In this document: positions 4,457 through 38,789 of the stretch, piece after piece
How positions within the stretch are numbered: position 1 is the stretch's first letter
Layout: every line of letters starts with the position of its first letter
DNA from: a virus
Strand: one strand, 5' to 3'
IMG/VR virus record: IMGVR_UViG_3300020354_000001
Coordinates: 1-38,789 of that record
DNA: 38,789 bases
The notes under the pieces: generated by a model
What the model was told of the DNA's origin: nothing
The model's input: the letters and a program-made list of their open reading frames with translations, nothing else
Databases searched by the model: none
Made by a program: the position numbers and the translations under genes

Positions 4457-5212
4457 CTACCAGTTGTAAATCACCAGTTCCTTGGCCTTCTTGCTGTTGC
4501 TCGCGCCCACCGTGTAGTTGAGCGACACCTCCTCGATCCGCAGCCCATCGAACACCTGGCGTATGTCAGGGTGGTCGTTGATCGAGATAATCACCTTCCC
4601 CTGCACCTCCCGCGCAAGCGTGGCCATCGCCTCGTACTCCTCGAACGGGAACTCGCATTCATAGCCAGCGGTGGCCCAATACGGCGGGTCCAGGTAATGC
4701 AACGTGTGCGGCCGGTCGTAACGCTTCATGACCGCTTTCCAGTCCATGTTCTCAACGAATACCCGCGCGAGCCGCAGGTGGGCCTGGCTGAGGTTCTCCT
4801 CGATCCGCAGCAGGTTCAGGCCAGGGCCAGACGTGGTGGATATGCCAAAGTTCGAGTTGAGCTTACCGCCAAAGCCCTGCTGCTGCAGGTAGTAGAACCG
4901 CGCGGCCCGCTGGATATCCGTTAGCGTGTCGGTGTGTTTGAGCTTCTCCCACGCGAACATCTCGCGCGAGACCAGCGCCCATTTGAACTGGCGCACGAAC
5001 TCCTCCAGGTGGTGCTGCACCACCCGGTACAAGTTGACCAGGTCGCTGTTGGTGTCGTTGATCACCTCCACTTTGCTGGGTTGCTTCATGAAAAACAGCG
5101 CCGCGCCGCCCGCGAAGGGCTCAACGTAGCACTGGTGGTCAGGGAAGTTCGGCAGAATGTGTTTAGCCAGGCGGCGCTTGCCGCCCATCCACTGAATGAA
5201 TGGTTTAGACAT
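4457..5212 (-). CDS. dam: DNA N6-adenine methyltransferase (Dam family)
   Basis: 251 aa. EPFAGGAALFF is the AdoMet motif FxGxG and LDPPYW is the catalytic DPPY motif. The N-terminal KPFIQWMGGKRRL is typical of Dam. Confidence 0.9.
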   Translation of the reverse strand: MSKPFIQWMGGKRRLAKHILPNFPDHQCYVEPFAGGAALFFMKQPSKVEVINDTNSDLVNLYRVVQHHLEEFVRQFKWALVSREMFAWEKLKHTDTLTDIQRAARFYYLQQQGFGGKLNSNFGISTTSGPGLNLLRIEENLSQAHLRLARVFVENMDWKAVMKRYDRPHTLHYLDPPYWATAGYECEFPFEEYEAMATLAREVQGKVIISINDHPDIRQVFDGLRIEEVSLNYTVGASNSKKAKELVIYNW

Positions 5213-15854: not shown

Positions 15855-16580
15855 TTAGCCCTCATGATCGGTGAACACCAGCCACGCGGCAGCACCCGCG
15901 ACACTAAGCGTGGCGGCCGCCGTAGGGCTGGCAGTAATTCTTGATGCCGGATTGGCATCAAACGTAGTGCTGGCAGACTCAGCAACCGCCACCGGGCAAA
16001 GCGTGGCGGTCACCGTAGGGCTGGCAAGGATGCGGCCGTCTGGCGAATCATCGCGTGCCATTACCGAGGGATCAGCCGCACCGCTCAGCCCGAAGGCGCT
16101 TTCGGCACCGAGTGCCAGCGTCAACGTTAGTTCGTCACGCTCGCTCTTCGCATAGCTCAGGTTTCGGAGCATTTGCTCAGTAATGGCCTGATCAATCGGC
16201 GCATTGCCGCGCTTCCAGGCGATCACCTCCAGGTGGTACGGATCCGCGAACTCGGCGTTCCCGTCGTACCACGCAATAACTTCGGCGTCGTAATCCAGCT
16301 CATCCACGGCCAGCACCAGGGCGTGGCGGGTGCCCGCCAAGCGCCGGATCGGCCACACGTTCGCCACGGTGCGGCGCAAAAGCTCGGTCGAGGCGTCCCC
16401 ATCCCACTCAGCAACGCCGCGATCCTGTGCCAAATACGGCAGCATGGCGGGCGGTGTGCGCTGCGGATCGAGCAGCTCCGGGAACGGCGCTTCAATGCCC
16501 TCCAGCATCCCGGCAAACGCACGCTCGAACGCGCGCTCCAGGCGGCTGGCGTTCTCCGGCAGCAGCGAGTACTGGCTCAT
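15855..16580 (-). CDS. Baseplate protein I (P2 gpI-like)
   Basis: 241 aa. The N-terminal SLLPENASRLERAFERAF...PELLDPQRTPPAMLPYLA is typical of the gpI family. Confidence 0.85.
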   Translation of the reverse strand: MSQYSLLPENASRLERAFERAFAGMLEGIEAPFPELLDPQRTPPAMLPYLAQDRGVAEWDGDASTELLRRTVANVWPIRRLAGTRHALVLAVDELDYDAEVIAWYDGNAEFADPYHLEVIAWKRGNAPIDQAITEQMLRNLSYAKSERDELTLTLALGAESAFGLSGAADPSVMARDDSPDGRILASPTVTATLCPVAVAESASTTFDANPASRITASPTAAATLSVAGAAAWLVFTDHEG

Positions 16581-17569
16581 AACTGGAGCACCTCGATCTC
16601 GATGCCGGTGCAGTACGGCGCAGTGAAGTCAGCAGCGGCGAGGCTCTCGGCTGGCATGTCTAGCTCGATGCGCACGGCTCCGGCGTTGTGCAGCTCGGTA
16701 CCCAGCGCGCTGCGCTCGATAAAGCCCTCGATGCGGTGCTGTTCATCCGCGTAGCGCTGCACGTTTTTAATCGCCTGCTGATGCACCACGCGGGGATCCG
16801 GCCCACGGTTGATGTAGATCACCGCGCGGCACTGCCAGTTGACGATATCCGCCGCGGTTACTGTCACTTCATCCGTGGCCGGGGCAACGTCATTGCGTGC
16901 GAAGTGCGCGCGCGCCTCGTCGAGCAGCGCTTCGCTCGGCGTGCCGTCGCCCTCCCGGGAGAGCAGCGCGACACGTACTTGCCCAGGCGCAGTGCGCTTG
17001 CCCACCGCATCCTTCACCTTGCCCGCCAGCGTGCCGCTGGGTAGCCGGTACGTGACCGTGACCACCCCCTCTTCTGGCGTGGCCACACTAATTTGTGGCC
17101 GGGCGCTGAGGGTCATTGCGTGAAACTGATACGCCAGGCGCGGCCCCGCCACGCTGAAGCTGTACGGCGCGAGAAAGTGCCGCAACCGCAGGCTTTCGTC
17201 GTCTTCCTTCACCGCCGGTACCGGGGGAAACGCCGATGGGTCGCCTTCGGTGATCGTCTGTCGCTGCAGGCCCAAGTCGGCCACCTTGGCGTCCAGGTTG
17301 CTGCCCTCGGCCCACCACGCCAGCATTTGCTTGATCTGCTCATTGCGGTGGCGGCGCTCGGTCTGCAGCATCACCGTGGCCACCTCGACCAACTTGGTGA
17401 AAACCTCCGATTCGCTTTCCAACGTGGCGCGGATCCTTTCCGAAAGTGCCTGGTCGCTTTCCGCTACGTGGGCAATCGTTACCGCTTTGAACGTTGCGAG
17501 CATCTGCTCGAACGGCGGCACCTCGACGATCGCCGGGTCGGCGAGGCGGTTTTGTCCGGGTATCAGCAT
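16577..17569 (-). CDS. Baseplate protein J (P2 gpJ-like)
   Basis: 330 aa. V-W-J-I gene order with ATGA-type overlaps. Confidence 0.85.
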   Translation of the reverse strand: MLIPGQNRLADPAIVEVPPFEQMLATFKAVTIAHVAESDQALSERIRATLESESEVFTKLVEVATVMLQTERRHRNEQIKQMLAWWAEGSNLDAKVADLGLQRQTITEGDPSAFPPVPAVKEDDESLRLRHFLAPYSFSVAGPRLAYQFHAMTLSARPQISVATPEEGVVTVTYRLPSGTLAGKVKDAVGKRTAPGQVRVALLSREGDGTPSEALLDEARAHFARNDVAPATDEVTVTAADIVNWQCRAVIYINRGPDPRVVHQQAIKNVQRYADEQHRIEGFIERSALGTELHNAGAVRIELDMPAESLAAADFTAPYCTGIEIEVLQL

Positions 17570-30709: not shown

Positions 30710-30976
30710 CTACGCTCCCTTCGCTTTTGTGTGCGAGATAAAATCCTGCAGCAGCTCTTGCATGCGTTTTTCATCACCACAGTGGCCAAGCGTGTCATGC
30801 CATACCTTGGCAAGAACGAGCATTTCAAATAGCGACAGCAGACCATGGTCATTATCAAAATCACTCATGCCTGCAATCGACTCAAAGGCGTCGCAGGCTC
30901 TACGTAGCGCGTTTGTATTTCCGGCTACTGCGAGCATCACCCGCTGATTGACTGGCGACTGGTTTCCCATCCTCAA
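30710..30976 (-). CDS. Hypothetical protein (88 aa)
   Basis: ORF track. Start overlaps the upstream stop. Confidence 0.55.
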   Translation of the reverse strand: MRMGNQSPVNQRVMLAVAGNTNALRRACDAFESIAGMSDFDNDHGLLSLFEMLVLAKVWHDTLGHCGDEKRMQELLQDFISHTKAKGA

Positions 30977-31593
30977 CCCCCAATCTCAAAAGCGAGCATA
31001 CGCATACGCGGCAGCGGCCGACCGGTGCCCCGGCTGACCGCCGCAACTTCGCTCAATACCGCTTCCACCAGGTCGACGGCCTCTTTCATCATTCGATCTG
31101 CCTGTGCAGGGCAATCGTTGCGGTCATAACCGCCGTTGTGGGCTGGCTGGGAGTACTGCAGGAACTCGCCGAACTCCTGGCTGATGCGGTGAAGCTGGGA
31201 AGCCGCCCGCGCGAGATCGTCGACGGCTGAGAAGCGAGGCACCGGCACGTACAGCGAACCGGCCATGGCCATCAACTCCCGGCGCACCTCGATCTGGTAC
31301 TGCTCTGGCAACAGATTGACCCACGGCCACTTCCACGCCATCGGAAACGGCTGATCGCCGCGAATGATCCGGCCAACTTTCATCGAGACGCTGCGACGCC
31401 AGCGCATATACGCATCGGTGCTGCGCTCGACCTCGTCCCGGTCCACTTCCACCATCCCTTGGCGCTCCAGCGCTGGGATCAGGTGGATGGTCGAGAACGA
31501 CTCGATGGATTCACGGCTATTCGCGAACCAATCCAGGGTCGCTTTGATGATGACGTCGCACTCAGTGCGGGGCTTTGATGACATGACAACCAT
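30973..31593 (-). CDS. First early-left gene, possible 186 CII / CP76-family regulator
   Basis: 206 aa, divergent from the repressor gene. GSLYVPVPRFSAVDDLARAASQLHRISQEFGEF and IIRGDQPFPMAW resemble the CP76 family by eye. The ATG at 31584 has a better RBS than the one at 31593. Confidence 0.35.
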   Translation of the reverse strand: MVVMSSKPRTECDVIIKATLDWFANSRESIESFSTIHLIPALERQGMVEVDRDEVERSTDAYMRWRRSVSMKVGRIIRGDQPFPMAWKWPWVNLLPEQYQIEVRRELMAMAGSLYVPVPRFSAVDDLARAASQLHRISQEFGEFLQYSQPAHNGGYDRNDCPAQADRMMKEAVDLVEAVLSEVAAVSRGTGRPLPRMRMLAFEIGG

Positions 31594-31724: not shown

Positions 31725-32393
31725 ATGGATATTGGAAGCGCTATACGCCACCTCAGACGCCAGCAAGGGCTTACCTTGCAAGAGCTCTGCGACGCGATCG
31801 GTAATGACATGCAGACCGGCTATCTCTCACGCGTTGAGACGAATAAGCTGAATCCTAGCGTCTATACCGTGGCGGATATCGCCCGCGCGCTCGGCACCAC
31901 CGTCGATGATTTGCTGAAAGGTAGCAACACTTTTCATGCCTACAAGGAGACGAAAGCATGCCGAAAAATACCAGTTTTCCCGTTCGTTGCTGCAGCTAAT
32001 CCATACGCTGTAGGAATGTACCCACCTACGACTGCACTCACGACCATTCCATCGCCTGTAGACGTGCCATTGGGCAGCTTTGGATTGATTCTTGATGATG
32101 ACTCGATGCAGAGCAGCGAAGGTCTAAGCTTTTCGCAAGGTAGCGTGGTTATCTTCGCGCCTTATGACAAAAACCGACTAATACGCGAGAAACAAATCCA
32201 GCTTGGGCAATACGTTATTGTTCATTCCCAAAATGCCAGACCCGGCACCCCACCCCTATTTCGCCAGCTAGTTGCCGATGGCGCTGAACGCATGCTCCGA
32301 CCACGCAACTCTCGCTACCCCATCCGCCCGTTGCCGCCTGAGCCGGTTTTTGTAGGCTATGCAGTAGTCCAAATCCTAGACCTGACCTCATGA
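31725..32393 (+). CDS. Prophage repressor: XRE-type HTH plus S24 (LexA/cI-like) C-terminal domain
   Basis: ORF track 31626..32393. The ATG at 31725 has a GGGAGG RBS. The HTH is QGLTLQELCDAIGNDMQTGYLSRVETNK. The C-domain has PVFPFVAAANP, LDDDSMQ and LFRQLVADGAERMLRPRNSRYPIRP, which align with lambda cI / LexA. Confidence 0.85.
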   Translation: MDIGSAIRHLRRQQGLTLQELCDAIGNDMQTGYLSRVETNKLNPSVYTVADIARALGTTVDDLLKGSNTFHAYKETKACRKIPVFPFVAAANPYAVGMYPPTTALTTIPSPVDVPLGSFGLILDDDSMQSSEGLSFSQGSVVIFAPYDKNRLIREKQIQLGQYVIVHSQNARPGTPPLFRQLVADGAERMLRPRNSRYPIRPLPPEPVFVGYAVVQILDLTS

Positions 32394-32515: not shown

Positions 32516-32545
32516 CAACGGCCGGGTTTAGCGGCCCGGCCGTTG
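32516..32545. other. Strong hairpin in the repressor-repA spacer (11-bp stem CAACGGCCGGG / CCCGGCCGTTG)
   Basis: Arms at 32516-32526 and 32535-32545, with an 8-nt loop. On the minus strand it is followed by TTCGTTTCTGCTTTCC. Confidence 0.6.
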
Positions 32546-32567: not shown

Positions 32568-32700
32568 AACATATATTTCCTTCGCACGTTGTTGCCAAGC
32601 TGTTGATTTCAAAGAACTGTTAGCGGGCAGATCTATGAAAGCCGGACACAACTATAGGTAGTATATGGCGTGGTCTCGTAGCGTTCAACTTTCTGCTGAC

Positions 32701-32732
32701 GTTTGTACAAGAGTACAAACGTACAAAAGTAC
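32701..32732. promoter_or_regulatory. GTAC-box array E: four to five contiguous 8-bp units just upstream of repA, in opposite spacer polarity to arrays A-D
   Basis: Units are GTTTGTAC AAGAGTAC AAACGTAC AAAAGTAC, then a degenerate ACGGGAAC. Includes the inverted repeat GTTTGTAC-AAGA-GTACAAAC (32701-32720). Confidence 0.6.
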
Positions 32733-32752: not shown

Positions 32753-35700
32753 ATGACGAATGTAGGACGCCAGGGATTAGCCAGTTTTTACGAAGAGCGT
32801 TTCCGCAGCGACCCCCACGCGCTGCTGGATTACTGCCACGGCGAGATCGCTCACATCGCCGCCGAGGTATCGGTCGACTGGGACAAGCTCGCCGGTGACC
32901 TGCGCCTCGATGACAAAAAGCATCGTGGAAAAATCCCCACGCTCGCTAAAGGCGAGCGTCATCGTGTTGCGGTCTTCGGCTCGCTCAAGCGCGCCCGTAA
33001 CGGCATCGAATACCCCCACATAAATTTCCACACCCTAGCCCAAGGCGGTTACAACGCTACCTGGTCAGGCTATGACGCACTGCTCGAACTCTACCGCCGC
33101 GAAGGCGGGCAAGCGGCTGACGCAAAGCACGCCGCCTGGCTTGCCAAACAAGAGGCACGGCGCGCGGAGCGCGCCGCGCGCATGGCAGAAGTGGAACGCC
33201 AGGAGCGCATCGAGCGCGAACGTCTTCAGGGCGAGCATGACGCCTATGAGCAGGCGTTCTATCGCGGTGGGGCACACTCCTTTGAATACGCACCGGGCAA
33301 GTTCGACACGGTCGAGCTGATCGGCGATGCGGACGGTACCGAGCCATATCTGCAGAACAAACAGATCGAGAGCATCGTCGATGCCGTGACGCTCAAACGC
33401 ATGCGCGACCGCCACGGCGAGTTCGTAGCGTTTGCCCTGCAGGGTATCGACGGCGACTATCGCGGCCTGCAGCGGCTATACCCCACGTTCAAAAAATACA
33501 CCGTAGCCGTGCGCGGCGGGCAGTTCGACGGCGCGCACCTGCTGATCGGCGACATCTACGCCAAGCGACTTTATAGCGTCGAGGGCTTCGCCACCGGCGC
33601 GAGTGTCTGGCTGGCTGAAACCGCTATCAAGAGTGCAGAGTGCGGCGTCATCGTTGCGATGAACGCTCAGAACCTGCCGAAAGTGCTGCGCGCCTACAAG
33701 CGCTGGGACGACAAGCTGCGCCCGGTGAACGCCGCCGATAACGACTGCTGGAAACCCATGGCTGGCAACGCTGGCCAGCTTCGCGCCCTGGAAGTGAAGC
33801 GCGAGCTGGAAGTGCGCAGCGTAATGCCGCGCTTTCATGAGCTGCTCGACGATGACGCGATCGCTGACGCGCTGGCCACCGGCAAAGGCCCAAACGACTG
33901 GAACGACATGCACTGCCAGTTTGGCCTGGACGTTACTGCCAAAGCCCTGCGCGCGCGTGCCAGCAAGGTCGAGGTCGAGACCGCCTTTTTCGATTACTGC
34001 CTGCAGCGCGTTCAGGCGTCCGGCAGCATGAACGTGATGGAAGAGGCGCTGAAAGCGGTCAACGCAGGCATGCAACTGGCACCGACTAAGTACACTGGCC
34101 GCGCCGTTTTCCGTACCGTCTGCGAAGCGATCCCGCAGGGTTTACCGTTTAACCGCCACCGCTTGCTCTCCCGCGTATGCTGGCTGGCGAAAAAGAAACT
34201 GCAGAGCGCCGCTGGCCTGCGCAGCTTCACCGCTGAAGGGCTCAATCGTCCCAACGTTCAGTATCACAAGGTGCGCGGCGTGCGCGCCGATCACGGCAAC
34301 ATCCTGCTGCCCGACCACATTCAAGACCTCGTCCAGTCGCTCAACGGCATGGTGATTGTTCGCGGCCCGATGGGAGCCGGTAAAACCGAACATCTGATTC
34401 GTCCATTGATGCAGGCGTCACCGAAAGCCGCTTACATCGCTCACCGCGTCTCGCTCGTCGGCGATGCCGCTTACCGCCTCAACACCACGCACTATCGCAA
34501 CGTGATCGCCGCCGAGATGCCCTACGTATCGCACCTCGCGTGCTGCGTAAACTCCATCACTCACCCCAAATTTCACAACGGCGACGGCCGCTCCTGGTTC
34601 ACGACCGTCGACACGCTCTGCATCGACGAAGCCAGCCAGGTGCTACGCCACATCGCCACCGGCCCGGTGGACCAGCCCACCCGCGTCATGGATGGCCTGG
34701 TCGAGGCCATGCAGTCCGCGCGCCTGGTATTGATGTGCGACGCCGACGCCAACGACTCACTGATCGAGCTATGCGAAATGGCGCGCCCCGGCGAGCCGAT
34801 TCACATTCTCGAAGTCGACCCTGCCAACGATCATATCCGCATCGATCACGCTGACCATGAGAGCGTGTGGCAGAAAGCGCTGGATGCTGCAGTTGCCGGT
34901 GAGCGCGTATTGATCGCCAACGACAGCGCCGAAAGTGCCAAAAAACTGGCGGTGATGATCGAGCAGCAGCGCCCGGACGCGAAAGTGCTGCTGGTTCACA
35001 AAGAGAGTAAAGCGAACCCGGATGCCGAGCGCTTCCTCGACCGTCCCAACGATGAGGCCGTCAATTATGACGTACTGATCTACAGCCCAGCGATCAGCTC
35101 CGGCGTGTCGATCACAACGCCCCATTTCACCCGGCATTTTGGTATTTTCAGCGGCCAGACGGTCAGCCCAAGCGACGCTATTCAGATGATGCGCCGCGAC
35201 CGCACCGCCCGCCACTACGTGGTGGGCATCGGCATATCCCGCGTGATGCGTGAGACCGACCGCGAAGCGCTATTCCGTGGCCTGATCGCCGCCGACGAGC
35301 TTAGCTGTGATTTTGACGAGACCGACACCGAGATCGTGCTGCGACGGACGAAAACGGTATTCGATGAGATGTTCCTTAGCTGCAGCACTGGCGATAACCA
35401 CGCGCGCAATGATTTTGCCAATCACCTGCTGCTCATGCTGATCGCGGACGGCTACCGCGTAAACCGCTTGGCCACCGATGAACAGGAGGTCAGCCAGAGC
35501 CGCTCAAACCGTAAAGAGGCGGGCATCCTGGTGCGCCACCGCCGCCTAGAGATCCTGTACAGCGTCGAGACGCCCGACGAAGAGCGTTTCGCCCGGCTCA
35601 ACCGCCAGGAGATCAAATCGGAGACCGAGCAAGCCGAGATCGACCGCCACCACATTGAACACCAGCTCTGCGTTCCAGAGATCGAAAACCACCACGTCGA

Positions 35701-36739
35701 TTTTTACGACGACCAGGGCATCCGCCACGTGACCGCCATCGAGCTGCTGCAGGCCACCGAGGCCCAGGCAGACGCTTACGACAAGGCGCAACGTAAAGCT
35801 CGCGTCACGCTGACCCGCCACCGCTGGAAAAAGCCCGTACACCGCCTGCTCAACCAGGTGTTTGAAACCCTGGGCGTCGACCCGCACACCGGCGAGGGCG
35901 AGTTCACCGCCGATCAGTGCCGCGCCGTGCGCGACACGCTGCTCGCTAATCAAGCCGCGATAGAGCTGTATAACGCGCTCCGGATCGGCCGCTACGTGAA
36001 CCCGAAAGCCTCGCCGAAATGCGCTACTACGTTCGTGAAGTCGATCATGGAGCGCCTTGGCCTCGCCCTGCACAAGCGCAAATCGGACGGCCGGAACGTG
36101 CTGTTTATCAGCACCGACTCATGGGAAGAGGTCATGTACTACGTGCGCCTGCGCGCCGAGCGCGGCGTTCACAGCCTGACCACCCACGAGGCCGCTAGCA
36201 TCCACCAGCCAATGCCCGCGCCGGTACGTGAAACCACCGACGAAGCCCACAACCACGCGGATTCCAGCGAAAGGGATACTTTGCGTGAAGGGGTAGCAGC
36301 AGCAGATGTAAGGTATCCCTCCCTGGGCGATAGCGAAAAGCTCTATGCCGCCGCGAAAGCCGCTTCAAGCCCTCTCAGTTTAGACACGACGCTGGTGGAA
36401 GCGGTGCAGGCGTTGCCTGACGAGATCCGGCAGGCGGTGGTGAACGGGCAGGTTAGCCCGGACGAGCTGGCCTGGGCGATCGGCTACGCATCCAGCATGC
36501 ACAAGCGGGGCAGCGCTGACGAGCTGCACTGCAACCCCGGCGTTATCAAGCGCCTGTATGACGCAGCCCGTGACCTGCCGCTAGCGCTGCCGCTGGTGGA
36601 TGTCGTTGCCCTGCTGCACCCGCAGATCCTGACCAGCATCAGCCAGTACAGCACCGACAACCTGCTGATGACGTTAGAATTTGCTGCTGAGTATATGCGA
36701 AAAAAGTTAACTGGATTGACCCCTGAACATGGGCAATAA
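32753..36739 (+). CDS. repA: Replication protein RepA (N15 RepA / P4 alpha-like primase-helicase)
   Basis: 1328 aa. A Toprim/primase-like region (VEGFATGASVWLAE...VIVAMNAQNL...NAADND) is followed by an NTPase with Walker A GPMGAGKTE and Walker B LCIDEASQ. Size and placement match N15 RepA. Confidence 0.88.
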   Translation: MTNVGRQGLASFYEERFRSDPHALLDYCHGEIAHIAAEVSVDWDKLAGDLRLDDKKHRGKIPTLAKGERHRVAVFGSLKRARNGIEYPHINFHTLAQGGYNATWSGYDALLELYRREGGQAADAKHAAWLAKQEARRAERAARMAEVERQERIERERLQGEHDAYEQAFYRGGAHSFEYAPGKFDTVELIGDADGTEPYLQNKQIESIVDAVTLKRMRDRHGEFVAFALQGIDGDYRGLQRLYPTFKKYTVAVRGGQFDGAHLLIGDIYAKRLYSVEGFATGASVWLAETAIKSAECGVIVAMNAQNLPKVLRAYKRWDDKLRPVNAADNDCWKPMAGNAGQLRALEVKRELEVRSVMPRFHELLDDDAIADALATGKGPNDWNDMHCQFGLDVTAKALRARASKVEVETAFFDYCLQRVQASGSMNVMEEALKAVNAGMQLAPTKYTGRAVFRTVCEAIPQGLPFNRHRLLSRVCWLAKKKLQSAAGLRSFTAEGLNRPNVQYHKVRGVRADHGNILLPDHIQDLVQSLNGMVIVRGPMGAGKTEHLIRPLMQASPKAAYIAHRVSLVGDAAYRLNTTHYRNVIAAEMPYVSHLACCVNSITHPKFHNGDGRSWFTTVDTLCIDEASQVLRHIATGPVDQPTRVMDGLVEAMQSARLVLMCDADANDSLIELCEMARPGEPIHILEVDPANDHIRIDHADHESVWQKALDAAVAGERVLIANDSAESAKKLAVMIEQQRPDAKVLLVHKESKANPDAERFLDRPNDEAVNYDVLIYSPAISSGVSITTPHFTRHFGIFSGQTVSPSDAIQMMRRDRTARHYVVGIGISRVMRETDREALFRGLIAADELSCDFDETDTEIVLRRTKTVFDEMFLSCSTGDNHARNDFANHLLLMLIADGYRVNRLATDEQEVSQSRSNRKEAGILVRHRRLEILYSVETPDEERFARLNRQEIKSETEQAEIDRHHIEHQLCVPEIENHHVDFYDDQGIRHVTAIELLQATEAQADAYDKAQRKARVTLTRHRWKKPVHRLLNQVFETLGVDPHTGEGEFTADQCRAVRDTLLANQAAIELYNALRIGRYVNPKASPKCATTFVKSIMERLGLALHKRKSDGRNVLFISTDSWEEVMYYVRLRAERGVHSLTTHEAASIHQPMPAPVRETTDEAHNHADSSERDTLREGVAAADVRYPSLGDSEKLYAAAKAASSPLSLDTTLVEAVQALPDEIRQAVVNGQVSPDELAWAIGYASSMHKRGSADELHCNPGVIKRLYDAARDLPLALPLVDVVALLHPQILTSISQYSTDNLLMTLEFAAEYMRKKLTGLTPEHGQ

Positions 36740-36759
36740 TACTGTATACTTGAACAGTA
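36740..36759. promoter_or_regulatory. LexA (SOS) box, gammaproteobacterial type CTGT-N8-ACAG
   Basis: TACTGTATACTTGAACAGTA matches 16 of 20 positions of TACTGTATATATATACAGTA. All four mismatches lie in the central spacer. It contains a -10-like TATACT (36745-36750) and sits 26 nt upstream of the ATG at 36785. Confidence 0.7.
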
Positions 36760-36784
36760 AATATAACCGTAGGGGGGTAACTTT

Positions 36785-37072
36785 ATGACCGATGAAACCG
36801 TGTATGACGTACAGGACCAACTGGAAGAGCGCTTGGCCAGGGCGAGTGCCTTGCTTCACCTGCTCTCGCAGTCAGATGGCGTCGATAGCCAGACGCTGCA
36901 AAGCGTGGCACAGGACGCCGCCGACCATGTGACCCAGGCGCAGTCGCTTTGCCAGACGCTGGCAGAGACGCACAAAAAAGGGCCAGCGCTTGAGCGCCAG
37001 CCCCTTCATGCCGCGTTATCGATGCACCTAGTGGGCGCGCGCTCCCCTCAGCGCCCACCCGCCGCTTTATAG
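36785..37072 (+). CDS. Small LexA-box-associated protein, candidate SOS-controlled antirepressor (Tum-like role)
   Basis: 95-aa ORF with an AGGGGGG RBS 7 nt upstream. The helical, acidic N-terminal ~60 aa look protein-like. The 3' end overlaps the convergent telN by 25 nt. No recognisable family. Confidence 0.5.
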   Translation: MTDETVYDVQDQLEERLARASALLHLLSQSDGVDSQTLQSVAQDAADHVTQAQSLCQTLAETHKKGPALERQPLHAALSMHLVGARSPQRPPAAL

Positions 37073-38610
37073 GCCGCCTTCATCGCTTCGATCCGGCCTG
37101 CCTGGTTGCCCACCCGCGCAACCTCCACCCCGTTGATTGAAGCCACCCCGACCCACTGGCCATCCCCTTGCTGGTGGGCGACCAGCCGGGGCTTCGCCTC
37201 GGCTACTTCCTTCGGCACTGCCGCCGCGACCTTGTCCAGATCGACGTTCGGCGTGTCGAGCGCCTCTCGCGCCAGCTCCAGGTACGCCTTGATGGCAGGG
37301 CGATAAACGCCCAGCTCTCGGCTGATCAGAGACTGCGTAATTTTCGCGTCTGGCTCCTGCTCGATCTGCGCTTTCACCCAGGCATGCACACGCGCCTGGG
37401 CGTCGCTGCTCTCAAGCTGCTCATGGCCGTCCAACGCCTGCAGCGCAGCGAGGCGGCTAGCGTGTTCGTGCTCCTCCTGGTCGGCTTGATCCGGCTCGTC
37501 GTAGACGATCTTAAAGGCGCGGTAGCTGCGCTGGGTGTCCATGTCCTCGTGCCCCAGCATCTCGCGCCAGAACACGTCCTCGGTGACTTTCTTCCAGCGC
37601 TTGTCGCGAGAGAAGTGCAGCTCAAACACCAGCCGCGCCCAGATCGCGCGGCTGTCCTTGAACACGCGCTCATCGTTGTTAAAGATCCGCTTAGTGAGCG
37701 TGTTGAGCGTCTTCGCCGTGCGGCGGTTCACATCGCTGTTGTCCATGCCCTGCAGCTCAGCAACTTCCGGCAGCGAGCGCAGCTCGTCCCACGCTTCGAT
37801 CACCAGGTCAGCCTTCACCAGGGTATAGATGTGGTAAGCCTCGCTATAGTCGACGCCGCCGCGCTTTTTCGCTTGGCCGCTGAACTCCAGCTCATACTCG
37901 CCCACTTTGCTGATTCGGCCGGTCTTCAGCACCTCGATCGCGCGCCGCCCGGTGGCCAACGCCAGCCCCAGCGCTAGGTAACTGAAAAAGCCGCGATACT
38001 CGCCATCGACCACCCTCTCTCGGTTACTCAGCAGCTCGTAAACCGTCTCCATCAACCAGTGGTAGTTGATCTCGACCGTGTTCACCGCGCGCTCTTCCAG
38101 CGTCTCGCTGGCCTCTTCAGCCAGCGTGCTTTTCTGTGCAGAGCTCAACGTCAGGTGGCGCATGATTTCATGGTCGAGCTTCATCGCCCGGATGTCCTCA
38201 TAAGCGTCGTCATCGTTGCGGATCTGGTCGAGCAGCTCGCGGTGGGCCATACGAATGGCGCTGATATCGGTCAGCTTGCCGAGCGCTTTCAGCTTACTGG
38301 CATAAGCCGGGTAGCGGCTGGCCAGCCGCTCGATCTGTTGGTCGAAGCTGTGATGACGCCAGTTCTGTGCAGTCACCGCCTTGCGCGCTTCTGTCATGTA
38401 GCGGCGAAAGGTCGTGACCGCGATCCGCTCAGAATCCTTGCGGCGCTTGTCATCATGCAGGCGCGTTTTGAAGCTACGTGCCAGCCGCGCCATGCGCTTG
38501 GTTTTCTCTTTACGTGGCATCTCATCATCGGCGTCGATCTCTTTGATCTCGCTGAGCAACCACTCTATCAATTCCGCTAAATCAACCTTTCTACGTGACT
38601 CACCGCTCAT
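37048..38610 (-). CDS. telN: Protelomerase (telomere resolvase, TelN/TelK family)
   Basis: ORF track 37048..38679 (TTG). The ATG at 38610 has an RBS. Blocks match N15 TelN: FSGQAKKRGG, VFKDSRAIWARLVFE, and DVFWREMLGHEDMDTQRSYRAFKI, where SY corresponds to the catalytic Tyr context. Confidence 0.95.
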   Translation of the reverse strand: MSGESRRKVDLAELIEWLLSEIKEIDADDEMPRKEKTKRMARLARSFKTRLHDDKRRKDSERIAVTTFRRYMTEARKAVTAQNWRHHSFDQQIERLASRYPAYASKLKALGKLTDISAIRMAHRELLDQIRNDDDAYEDIRAMKLDHEIMRHLTLSSAQKSTLAEEASETLEERAVNTVEINYHWLMETVYELLSNRERVVDGEYRGFFSYLALGLALATGRRAIEVLKTGRISKVGEYELEFSGQAKKRGGVDYSEAYHIYTLVKADLVIEAWDELRSLPEVAELQGMDNSDVNRRTAKTLNTLTKRIFNNDERVFKDSRAIWARLVFELHFSRDKRWKKVTEDVFWREMLGHEDMDTQRSYRAFKIVYDEPDQADQEEHEHASRLAALQALDGHEQLESSDAQARVHAWVKAQIEQEPDAKITQSLISRELGVYRPAIKAYLELAREALDTPNVDLDKVAAAVPKEVAEAKPRLVAHQQGDGQWVGVASINGVEVARVGNQAGRIEAMKAAYKAAGGR

Positions 38611-38650
38611 TTTCCTACCCTCTTTCCATACATAATAAACCCTACAAATA

Positions 38651-38679
38651 TTTATAGACCATACATACCTACACGTCAA
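38651..38679 (-). promoter_or_regulatory. Candidate telN promoter
   Basis: Minus strand: -35 TTGACG (38679-38674), 17-bp spacer, -10 TATAAA (38656-38651). The spacer contains one telomere-flank octamer (CATACATA, 38660-38667). Confidence 0.55.
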
Positions 38680-38734
38680 GCCCTATATATACGCATACAT
38701 ACATGGATAGACAGGGGGCAACATACATACACGA

Positions 38735-38789
38735 CCCTATATTGGGCCACCTATGTATGCACACTGGCCCCATACTATACGTATAGTAT
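38735..38789. repeat. telR: right terminal inverted repeat, the other half of the protelomerase target
   Basis: Reverse complement of nt 1-55. The terminal 18-mer is identical to nt 1-18. Confidence 0.85.

What the first reader, a model, noticed from the sequence alone, without database searches (positions are those of the whole stretch)
36740..37072. Near-consensus LexA box directly upstream of a 95-aa orphan ORF wedged between repA and telN: candidate SOS-controlled antirepressor
TACTGTATACTTGAACAGTA (36740-36759) has both CTGT and ACAG half-sites with the exact 8-nt spacing of gammaproteobacterial SOS boxes. It matches 16 of 20 consensus positions and overlaps a -10-like TATACT.

It begins one nucleotide after the repA stop codon. 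It lies 26 nt upstream of an ATG with a strong G-rich RBS. I found no other CTGT-N8-ACAG site in any intergenic region of the window.

The ORF (36785-37072) encodes an acidic, helical-looking protein with no family I recognise. Its last codons overlap the convergent telN end.

Taken together with the apparently non-cleavable repressor, the simplest model is a Tum/Gifsy-type circuit. DNA damage removes host LexA, the small protein is made, and it inactivates the repressor. This would be a different induction wiring from the quorum-sensing (VqmA-Qtip) route described for the related telomere phage VP882.
Basis: partly seen in the sequence, partly recalled or inferred. Interest (0 to 1): 0.75.

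Follow-up and report, generated by a model that had tools for sequence, protein, structure and literature searches.

The report
SOS-gated small gene in telomere phage
A relative of Halomonas phage phiHAP-1 carries one strong, conserved binding site for the host DNA-damage repressor LexA in front of a small conserved gene, in the slot where phage VP882 keeps its quorum-sensing antirepressor; this gene most likely lets DNA damage switch off a phage repressor that has lost the residues needed to cut itself.

Summary
TACTGTATACTTGAACAGTA (36740-36759) is the only LexA-type box in the 38.8-kb window. Its heterology index is about 5, and the next best site scores 14.3. It abuts the repA stop codon, overlaps a promoter-like site, and precedes a strong ribosome-binding site and a 95-aa ORF that overlaps the telN 3' end.

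The window is 96% identical to Halomonas phage phiHAP-1, where this ORF is ORF35, annotated 'hypothetical'.

The box plus small ORF recurs at the same place in every short-gap relative examined:
- 37 viral contigs;
- 7 loci in isolate genomes, mostly Halomonas, Pseudomonas and Stutzerimonas;
- 11 loci from raw-read and metagenome assemblies.

The half-sites are invariant and the centre varies. The ORF is under purifying selection (dN/dS 0.12-0.21).

The neighbouring CI-like repressor has a lambda-cI/LexA fold but lacks the Ala-Gly cleavage site and has Arg in place of the catalytic Lys. None of 39 repressors beside such a module keeps the full cleavage triad. VP882 and its twin keep it, and they carry VqmA-Qtip instead of a LexA box.

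LexA control is strongly supported. The antirepressor role is inferred from position and from this complementary pattern, and is not shown. I found no significant homology to Qtip or to the N15 AntC candidate.

This is a new protein family in a known kind of circuit.

The parts
36740..36759 (.). LexA (SOS) box TACTGTATACTTGAACAGTA
   Evidence: Only CTGT-N8-ACAG in the window. HI 5.06 against 14.3 for the next best site. 0 of 300 random windows do as well. Half-sites are invariant and the centre varies in all relatives.
36716..36743 (+). Promoter-like site: -35 TTGACC (36716-36721), 16-nt spacer, -10 AATACT (36738-36743). The -10 overlaps the left arm of the LexA box. An alternative -10, TATACT, lies at 36745-36750 inside the box.
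   Evidence: Consensus scan found 1 site against 0.3 expected. TTGNCC and AATACT are kept in the phiHAP-1-type relatives. T at box position 11 is kept in all of them. Function is inferred.
36771..36777 (+). Shine-Dalgarno sequence AGGGGGG, 7 nt before the ATG
   Evidence: Read directly from the sequence. A GGAGG/GGGGG run sits at the same place in all relatives.
36785..37072 (+). 95-aa small ORF (phiHAP-1 ORF35 homologue): an acidic helical hairpin plus a disordered basic tail. Candidate SOS-induced antirepressor.
   Evidence: Homologues at 72-97% identity plus 4 distant ones, always between repA and telN. dN/dS is 0.12-0.21 at dS about 1. AF2 gives helices 2-28 and 35-65 with pLDDT about 88, and residues 67-95 below 50. 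No Pfam or PHROG family.
37048..37072 (.). 25-nt overlap between the 3' ends of the small ORF and the convergent telN
   Evidence: The same tail-to-tail overlap is seen for qtip and telN in VP882.
32753..36739 (+). repA. Its last codons hold the -35 element, and its stop codon abuts the LexA box.
   Evidence: No terminator-like site between repA and the small ORF.
37048..38610 (-). telN (protelomerase), convergent with the small ORF
   Evidence: Pfam ResT-TelK_cat, E 3e-30. 97.7% identical to phiHAP-1 TelN.
31725..32393 (+). CI-like prophage repressor with a degenerate S24 domain; presumed target of the small protein
   Evidence: HTH_3 E 3e-10; Peptidase_S24 only E 0.0025, below the curated cut-off. 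Alignment: the Ala-Gly site is absent (VAAAN), Ser is kept (DDSM), and the catalytic Lys is Arg (FRQL). The AF2 model matches lambda cI 3bdn at E 4e-8 and LexA.

Best explanation
In the lysogen, host LexA binds the box at 36740-36759. The box overlaps the -10/start region of a promoter whose -35 lies inside the end of repA, so the 95-aa gene stays silent. DNA damage activates RecA, LexA cleaves itself, and the promoter opens. The small acidic helical-hairpin protein is then made from its strong ribosome-binding site. It binds the phage CI-like repressor (31725-32393), which keeps a lambda-cI/LexA fold but lacks the Ala-Gly site and the catalytic Lys, and takes it off its operators. The lytic genes transcribed divergently from the repressor gene are then expressed.

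Shown here:
- the box, its quality and its conservation;
- that the ORF is a selected gene;
- that the repressor lacks cleavage determinants;
- that the gene occupies the qtip slot.

Inferred:
- LexA binding;
- the promoter;
- the protein-repressor interaction.
For: 1. LexA site. It is unique in the window, with HI 5.06 against at least 14.3 elsewhere. A box with HI 2.5-9.6 lies within -9 to +38 nt of the repA stop in all 37 short-gap viral contigs, while no other part of those loci scores below 10 (apart from the inverted duplicate of the same site in contig L034/L045). The same holds in 7 isolate-genome loci, mostly Halomonas, Pseudomonas and Stutzerimonas, and in the loci from raw-read and metagenome assemblies. 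The half-sites are fixed while the six central bases differ.

2. Real gene. dN/dS is 0.12-0.21, and a strong ribosome-binding site is present everywhere.

3. Position. In VP882, qtip is the small gene that is convergent with telN, overlaps its 3' end and runs in the repA direction. Qtip and other small ORFs of this locus are experimentally shown antirepressors (PMC10432266; bioRxiv 10.1101/2019.12.16.877910).

4. Complementary pattern. 0 of 39 repressors beside a LexA-box module keep Ala-Gly, Ser and Lys together. The phiHAP-1 clade has Lys to Arg; other clades have Ser to Thr, Leu, Gly or Ala. VP882 and L043, which carry VqmA-Qtip and no box, keep all three.

5. The repressor fold is cI/LexA-like.

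6. HMP1 is induced by mitomycin C, and phiHAP-1 is too (own knowledge, Mobberley 2008). An SOS input must therefore exist, and this is the only LexA site in the genome.

7. The repressor N-terminal domain, which Qtip targets in VP882, is about 50-60% identical across all these phages.
Against: - No binding or expression data exist.
- There is no significant sequence similarity to Qtip, to the N15 AntC candidate or to any Pfam or PHROG family. Structure searches return only generic helical hairpins.
- The small ORF is inherited with repA and telN rather than with the repressor. In window vs L014 and in L006 vs L016, the small ORFs are 94-97% identical but the repressors only 40-42%. One protein would therefore have to act on two repressor types, or else it acts on something else.
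- No terminator separates repA from the small ORF. Read-through from repA in the lysogen should give some expression.
- The heterology matrix was rebuilt from boxes recalled from memory, and the host's own LexA sites were not examined.
Confidence: 0.6

Rival explanations
1. The gene is LexA-controlled but acts on replication or telomere resolution, not on the repressor. Two versions are possible. The protein could modulate RepA or TelN to shift the linear plasmid into lytic replication. Alternatively, transcription from the SOS promoter could run antisense into the convergent telN and lower TelN expression.
For: The small ORF is co-inherited with repA and telN even when the repressor is exchanged. 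It overlaps the telN 3' end, and no terminator-like site lies between them. The arrangement is conserved in all relatives.
Against: Qtip has the same tail-to-tail arrangement with telN and is a proven antirepressor. This rival does not explain why the LexA box is present exactly where repressors have lost cleavage determinants and absent where they keep them. The mitomycin-C inducible phages would also still need another SOS input, and no other LexA site exists.
Confidence: 0.15
2. The gene is an SOS-induced, host-directed accessory function. It might modulate RecA or LexA as DinI does, or inhibit cell division. The repressor would then be inactivated by some other route.
For: Prophages often place dinI-like or division-inhibitor genes under LexA control; the Gifsy phages are an example (PMC3121763). 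The protein has no recognisable domain.
Against: There is no DinI or other Pfam match. The predicted fold is a two-helix hairpin, unlike DinI. The fixed position in the induction-module slot and the complementarity with repressor decay would be coincidences. No alternative SOS input is visible in the genome.
Confidence: 0.1
3. The palindrome is not a LexA site. It could be a chance match, an RNA hairpin at the end of repA, or the operator of a phage protein.
For: The bare CTGT-N8-ACAG pattern is expected 0.39 times per window by chance. The palindrome forms a short hairpin in predicted RNA folds.
Against: HI is 5.06, and 0 of 300 random windows do as well. The site is conserved in more than 45 loci from different hosts, with invariant half-sites and an uncompensated variable centre, which is the pattern of a protein site and not of an RNA stem. 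The candidate cI operators and repeats in the cI and repA control regions look different.
Confidence: 0.03

Closest known systems
Qtip of Vibrio phage VP882, and the TF-smORF modules of linear plasmid-like phages (Silpe & Bassler 2019; Silpe et al. 2020, 2023)
   Same: The genomic slot and orientation are the same: a small gene between repA and telN, running in the repA direction, convergent with telN and overlapping its 3' end. The protein is similar in size (79 vs 95 aa) and acidity (pI 4.95 vs 5.3). The neighbouring repressor is homologous, with an N-terminal domain about 52% identical. The TelN clade is the same, at 55% identity.
   Different: There is no adjacent transcription factor; a host LexA box takes the place of the VqmA-dependent promoter. 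No significant sequence similarity was found. The partner repressor here lacks the cleavage determinants that cI of VP882 keeps. The input would be SOS rather than SOS-independent.
AntC of linear plasmid-prophage N15 (Mardanov & Ravin 2007)
   Same: It is a telomere phage with a non-cleavable CI-type repressor, induced through a LexA-controlled antirepressor (PMC3121763; PMC4488713). The best LexA box in the N15 stretch examined (record 23000-46375), HI 3.9, precedes a 79-aa acidic ORF.
   Different: The N15 box and ORF lie in the right arm between genes 47 and 48, not between repA and telN. No significant similarity was found (hhalign P 0.04). The phage lineage is different: a siphovirus whose TelN is 34% identical.
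Tum of coliphage 186 and GfoA/GftA of the Gifsy prophages
   Same: The logic is the same: a LexA box, then a small protein, then binding and inactivation of a repressor that cannot cleave itself (PMC3121763).
   Different: The sequences are unrelated. No DinI-like part as in Tum was found (no Pfam hit). No terminator precedes the LexA box, unlike in Gifsy. The repressor here still carries a full-length, degenerate S24-like domain rather than being a short protein with only a DNA-binding domain.

Membership tests
Gammaproteobacterial LexA operator (SOS box) | CTGT-N8-ACAG palindrome close to TACTGTATATATATACAGTA | tested here: met
   16 of 20 consensus positions and both half-sites intact. HI 5.06, within the 0.8-9.7 range of 24 E. 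coli sites; the matrix was rebuilt from memory.
Gammaproteobacterial LexA operator (SOS box) | Overlaps the promoter or transcription start of the regulated gene | tested here: inconclusive
   The consensus scan places -10 AATACT at 36738-43, overlapping the box, with -35 TTGACC at 36716-21. No transcription start site data are available.
Gammaproteobacterial LexA operator (SOS box) | Conserved at orthologous positions across related genomes | tested here: met
   Present in 37 of 37 short-gap viral contigs, 7 of 7 isolate-genome loci, and all raw-read and metagenome assembly loci.
Gammaproteobacterial LexA operator (SOS box) | Bound by host LexA; the gene is derepressed by DNA damage | not testable with these tools
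   Needs EMSA or ChIP and expression data. The named hosts found are gammaproteobacteria. Halomonas appears in the genus table of a LexA-box survey, but I could not confirm from the column headers that it was among the genera retained.
LexA-controlled antirepressor circuits (Tum / AntC / GfoA type) | The cognate repressor is not self-cleaving | tested here: met
   By sequence only: no Ala-Gly site, and Lys replaced by Arg, in a cI/LexA-like fold. Cleavage itself was not assayed.
LexA-controlled antirepressor circuits (Tum / AntC / GfoA type) | The small protein binds and inactivates the repressor | not testable with these tools
LexA-controlled antirepressor circuits (Tum / AntC / GfoA type) | Sequence homology to a characterised antirepressor | tested here: not met
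   No Pfam or PHROG hit. The N15 AntC candidate gives P 0.04. Tum and GfoA sequences were not compared directly.
repA-telN small-ORF induction modules (Qtip, smORF72) | Small ORF between convergent repA and telN | tested here: met
repA-telN small-ORF induction modules (Qtip, smORF72) | Adjacent, divergently transcribed phage transcription factor that activates the small ORF | tested here: not met
   The repA-telN gap is 308 nt and holds only the box and the small ORF. The long-gap relatives (1060-1175 nt) carry additional genes in the gap.
repA-telN small-ORF induction modules (Qtip, smORF72) | Homology to Qtip | tested here: not met
   hhalign probabilities are 4% or lower, both with a single Qtip sequence and with a 4-sequence Qtip profile.
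Self-cleaving S24 repressors (LexA / lambda cI), applied to the neighbouring repressor | Ala-Gly cleavage site plus Ser nucleophile plus Lys general base | tested here: not met
   Ser is kept (DDSM). The site reads VAAAN, and Lys is Arg (FRQL). Arg is invariant in 6 homologues.
Self-cleaving S24 repressors (LexA / lambda cI), applied to the neighbouring repressor | HTH N-terminal domain plus S24-like beta-rich C-terminal domain | tested here: met
   HTH_3 E 3e-10. Foldseek gives lambda cI 3bdn E 4e-8, the cI C-terminal domain with target-normalised TM-score 0.69-0.70, and LexA E 7e-6. The model's mean pLDDT is 70.7.

The most novel reading that the evidence does not exclude
In phiHAP-1/VP882-type telomere phages, the repA-telN slot is a general plug-in point for the induction signal, and its usual occupant is a host-LexA-gated small antirepressor rather than a phage transcription factor module. 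Where this module is present, the repressor's peptidase domain has decayed into a pseudo-enzyme, and it has done so more than once: by Lys to Arg in one clade and by loss of the Ser nucleophile in others. VP882's quorum-sensing module paired with an intact self-cleaving repressor is then the exception. The several small-ORF families would be diverged relatives, or convergent solutions, that all bind a conserved repressor N-terminal domain.
Probability: 0.5. Interest if true: 0.65.

Novelty: new member of a known kind. Interest (0 to 1): 0.55.

Why it matters
It would explain how phiHAP-1 and HMP1, abundant marine telomere phages, respond to mitomycin C even though their repressors lack cleavage residues.

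It would also fill in the set of loci that the study of repA-telN small-protein modules put aside because their repressors lacked catalytic sites (210 of 271 loci, mostly N15-like).

It adds a new family of small proteins to the few known antirepressors. The comparison with VP882 is clean: the slot and the repressor family are the same, but the input differs (host LexA versus a phage quorum-sensing receptor), and the repressor's self-cleavage has been lost in step with that difference.

phiHAP-1 and HMP1 are cultured with their hosts, so every step can be tested directly.

Tried and rejected
- **Homology searches for the 95-aa protein.** Pfam and PHROGs gave nothing. A profile search of 1.84 billion representative proteins found only 4 more distant members, all in the same slot. 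GenBank phages hold it only in phiHAP-1.
- **Remote homology.** hhalign against Qtip (single sequence and profile), the other small-ORF families, N15 gp31 and the N15 AntC candidate gave P values of 0.003-0.5, none significant. The three Pseudomonas-type families are related to each other at 95-98% probability.
- **Structure searches.** Searches with the AF2 model against PDB and BFVD gave no match at E <= 0.001, only generic helical hairpins.
- **Anti-Shine-Dalgarno idea.** A C-run inside the -35 element might pair with the ribosome-binding site in repA read-through RNA. The window folds that way. The consensus fold keeps only the box hairpin, and shuffling the upstream part gives similar pairing in most relatives. 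I dropped the idea.
- **Box as a cI operator.** The repeats in the cI and repA control regions are unrelated to the box.
- **phiHAP-1 ORF38 as the real antirepressor.** It is annotated 'prophage antirepressor', but it matches a CII-like activator family and no Ant or BRO domain.
- **Papers not held.** The original phiHAP-1 and N15 AntC papers could not be read.
- **Host LexA sites.** I could not fetch a Halomonas lexA or recA promoter to build a host-specific matrix.

Full report
**What the window is.** Bases 36000-38789 are 96.4% identical to Halomonas phage phiHAP-1 (EU399241 / NC_010342), a telomere (linear plasmid-like) myovirus of the genus Hapunavirus. The gene order in the window is:
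- a CII-like gene, 30973-31593, minus strand;
- the CI-like repressor, 31725-32393;
- repA, 32753-36739;
- the 95-aa ORF, 36785-37072;
- telN, 37048-38610, minus strand.

The ORF corresponds to phiHAP-1 ORF35, annotated 'hypothetical protein'.

**Checking the observation.**
- The box TACTGTATACTTGAACAGTA lies at 36740-36759 and starts at the base after the repA stop codon.
- It matches the E. coli consensus at 16 of 20 positions. The four mismatches are in the central AT-rich part.
- AGGGGGG lies 7 nt before the ATG at 36785.
- The ORF's last 25 nt overlap the convergent telN.
- CTGT-N8-ACAG occurs once in the window on either strand.

The bare pattern is not rare: 0.39 are expected, and 35 of 100 shuffles have at least one. 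I therefore scored the full 20-mer with a Berg-von Hippel heterology index (HI). The matrix came from 24 E. coli LexA sites that I recalled from memory, which is a caveat. The box scores 5.06, inside the 0.8-9.7 range of the training sites, and the next best 20-mer in the 38.8-kb window scores 14.3. None of 300 first-order-Markov random windows reached 5.07 or lower, and 1% reached 8 or lower. A published re-analysis of E. coli K-12 sites reports peaks at HI 7.3 and 22.3, and takes the low-HI group as the likely LexA-binding fragments (PMC12527982). A consensus scan finds one promoter-like site: TTGACC (36716), a 16-nt spacer, then AATACT (ending at 36743). Its -10 overlaps the left arm of the box. 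The scan finds no terminator-like site between 36400 and 37500.

**Conservation of the box.**
- The protein has 11 homologues at 72-97% identity among 5.8 billion clustered proteins. A profile search of 1.84 billion representatives adds four more distant ones of 84-90 aa.
- Every contig recovered for them has the same order, repA, small ORF, then convergent telN.
- In all of them a box of the form TACTGTA(T/C)-N6-(A/T)ACAG lies 43-48 nt before the start codon. The half-sites are fixed, while the six central bases differ (ACTTGA, ACTTAA, AATCGT, AATTAT, CAATGA, ACTCGT) and the flanks diverge. This is the pattern of a protein-binding site and not of an RNA stem. The consensus fold keeps only four invariant pairs and shows no covariation.
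- A TelN-based survey of viral contigs gave 46 loci, of which 42 could be analysed. Thirty-seven have a short repA-telN gap of 278-331 nt. All 37 have a LexA-type box (HI 2.5-9.6) within -9 to +38 nt of the repA stop, followed by a strong ribosome-binding site and an 81-111 aa ORF that overlaps telN. Elsewhere in those loci nothing scores below 10, apart from the inverted duplicate of the same site in contig L034/L045.
- Five loci have a long gap of 1060-1175 nt that holds additional genes, and no comparable box. One of them, L043, is VP882-like, with VqmA and Qtip.
- Seven loci from isolate genomes all show the same module. They come from Halomonas sp. KAO, four Pseudomonas strains, Stutzerimonas, and a 'Spirulina' assembly that is probably contaminated.

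**The small ORF is a gene.** Between relatives whose synonymous divergence is about 1, dN/dS is 0.12-0.21. AlphaFold2 with the family alignment gives a two-helix hairpin (residues 2-28 and 35-65, pLDDT about 88) and a low-confidence C-terminal tail. The hairpin is acidic (pI 4.45) and the tail is basic. The last eight codons are shared with telN on the other strand, which may explain part of the tail's conservation.

The small ORFs at this position fall into several sequence families. Three Pseudomonas-type families are related to each other (hhalign 95-98% probability). The phiHAP-1 family aligns with them collinearly but not significantly (P 0.01-0.03). All share the same layout: a hairpin, then a Lys/Pro/Gly-rich motif, then a tail.

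**The repressor.**
- The 222-aa protein has an HTH_3 domain and only a sub-threshold S24 match. Its AlphaFold model (mean pLDDT 70.7) matches full-length lambda repressor (3bdn, E 4e-8), the lambda C-terminal domain and LexA.
- Aligned with LexA, lambda cI and VP882 cI, it keeps the Ser (DDSM). It reads VAAAN where the others have the Ala-Gly cleavage site, and it has Arg where they have the catalytic Lys (FRQL against VKRL, FKKL and FKQL). The Arg is invariant in six homologues.
- From my own knowledge, LexA K156R is cleavage-deficient at physiological pH (Slilaty & Little 1987; Lin & Little 1989).
- Across the survey, none of the 39 repressors beside a LexA-box module keeps Ala-Gly, Ser and Lys together. 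The phiHAP-1 clade has Lys to Arg and no Ala-Gly. Other clades have Ser to Thr, Leu, Gly or Ala, and Ala-Ala at the site. Three keep Ser and Lys but lack Ala-Gly.
- The two repressors beside VqmA-Qtip (VP882 and L043) keep all three, and cI of VP882 is experimentally self-cleaving.
- Different residues are lost in different clades, which points to long-standing relaxed selection on catalysis.

**Why an antirepressor is the best reading.**
- In VP882, qtip is the small gene that runs in the repA direction, converges on telN and overlaps its end. vqmA-phage sits between qtip and repA.
- The window's ORF occupies that same slot and orientation, with the transcription factor gene missing and a host LexA site at the promoter.
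- Qtip, smORF72 and smORF63 from this locus inactivate their cI repressors without proteolysis (PMC10432266). Qtip binds the repressor's N-terminal domain, and that domain is about 50-60% identical across all the repressors here.
- HMP1, a 92% ANI relative of phiHAP-1, is induced by mitomycin C. phiHAP-1 is too, from my own knowledge of Mobberley et al. 2008. A repressor without cleavage determinants needs an SOS input, and this box is the only LexA-type site in the genome.
- The same logic is established for 186 Tum, Gifsy GfoA/GftA and N15 AntC (PMC3121763).

**What argues for caution.**
- Nothing here shows LexA binding, SOS-dependent transcription, or contact between the small protein and the repressor.
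- The protein has no significant similarity to Qtip or to the 79-aa ORF behind the N15 LexA box. Structure searches return only generic hairpins.
- The small ORF travels with repA and telN, not with the repressor. Window vs L014 and L006 vs L016 share 94-98% identity in the small ORF, RepA and TelN, but only 40-42% in the repressor. The HMP1 paper also notes that its repressor region differs from that of phiHAP-1. This fits an antirepressor that recognises the conserved N-terminal domain. It fits equally a protein that works with RepA or TelN.
- No terminator separates repA from the small ORF, so some read-through expression in lysogens is expected. I tested whether the ribosome-binding site is masked in read-through RNA and found no convincing support.

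**Comparison with what is known.**
- The circuit type, a LexA-gated small antirepressor for a non-cleaving repressor, is known, including in the telomere phage N15. There the box and ORF lie elsewhere in the genome.
- The slot is known as a site of induction modules from the Bassler laboratory's work. That work classified repressors by the presence of catalytic sites and set aside the 210 of 271 loci that lacked them. phiHAP-1 appears in their Figure 1A list but is not analysed, and LexA is mentioned only once, in the reference list.
- I found no paper in the held library that describes a LexA site in phiHAP-1 or in this slot.
- I therefore file this as a new member of a known kind. The protein family is new and the position is informative. 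The wider pattern, in which LexA is the usual input in this phage group and the repressor's peptidase domain has decayed alongside, appears not to have been described.

**Verdict.**
- LexA control of a real gene has a probability of about 0.9.
- The full model, including the antirepressor function, is at about 0.6.
- Interest is 0.55. The finding is solid, testable in cultured phage-host pairs, and fills a gap left open by recent work, but the mechanism is of a familiar type.

Noticed in passing
window 30973-31593 (- strand): The homologue of phiHAP-1 ORF38 is annotated 'prophage antirepressor' in GenBank. It matches PHROG 4834, 'CII-like transcriptional activator' (E 8e-66), has no Ant or BRO domain, and corresponds to VP882 gp60. 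The annotation looks wrong.
   Followed up: partly
window 31725-32393 vs L014 and L002; L006 vs L016: The immunity region is mosaic. Phages with 94-98% identical small ORF, RepA and TelN carry repressors only 40-42% identical, so the repressor gene has been exchanged by recombination.
   Followed up: partly
L060 (N15) 4856-5086, gene 31: N15 gp31 is a 76-aa protein in the immA operon between telN and repA. It reads like a two-helix protein (no structure was predicted) and shows weak, non-significant similarity to the phiHAP-1 small-ORF family (hhalign P 0.0026, probability 11%).
   Followed up: partly
L060 (N15) 16563-16832: The best LexA box in the N15 stretch examined (CCCTGTGTTTATATACAGTA, HI 3.9) precedes an unannotated 79-aa acidic ORF between genes 47 and 48. 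This is presumably antC, which is missing from the RefSeq annotation.
   Followed up: partly
window 32699-32730; also 374, 2745, 28735: GTACAAACGT / GTACAAAAGT repeats and an inverted repeat lie just upstream of the repA start. Similar TGTACA-containing 20-mers occur at three other places. They may be operators or origin elements.
   Followed up: no
window 32516-32545: A perfect 11-bp inverted repeat (CAACGGCCGGG / CCCGGCCGTTG, 8-nt loop) lies downstream of the repressor gene, in the long leader before repA. It looks like a terminator or attenuator.
   Followed up: no
L034 / L045 (IMGVR_UViG_2713897325_000002): One 31.7-kb viral contig carries two telN matches in opposite orientation, with the same LexA box at both. 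It is probably a palindromic assembly across the hairpin telomere, or a head-to-head dimer.
   Followed up: no
P0020, P0021 (from the Qtip search): These two proteins join the C-terminal part of Qtip to unrelated N-terminal sequence. They look like products of deletions within the vqmA-qtip locus, similar to the deletion contig described by Silpe et al. 2020.
   Followed up: no
L046/L047 and L057, repA-telN gap: These long-gap relatives carry a roughly 172-aa hydrophobic, probably membrane protein plus a 77-82 aa helical small ORF instead of a LexA box or VqmA. The L046/L047 repressor also has Arg at the Lys position. This may be another, uncharacterised input module.
   Followed up: no
window 38610 vs 38679: The longest telN ORF starts at a TTG at 38679 (543 aa). 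Comparison with the phiHAP-1 annotation places the start at the ATG at 38610 (520 aa).
   Followed up: no
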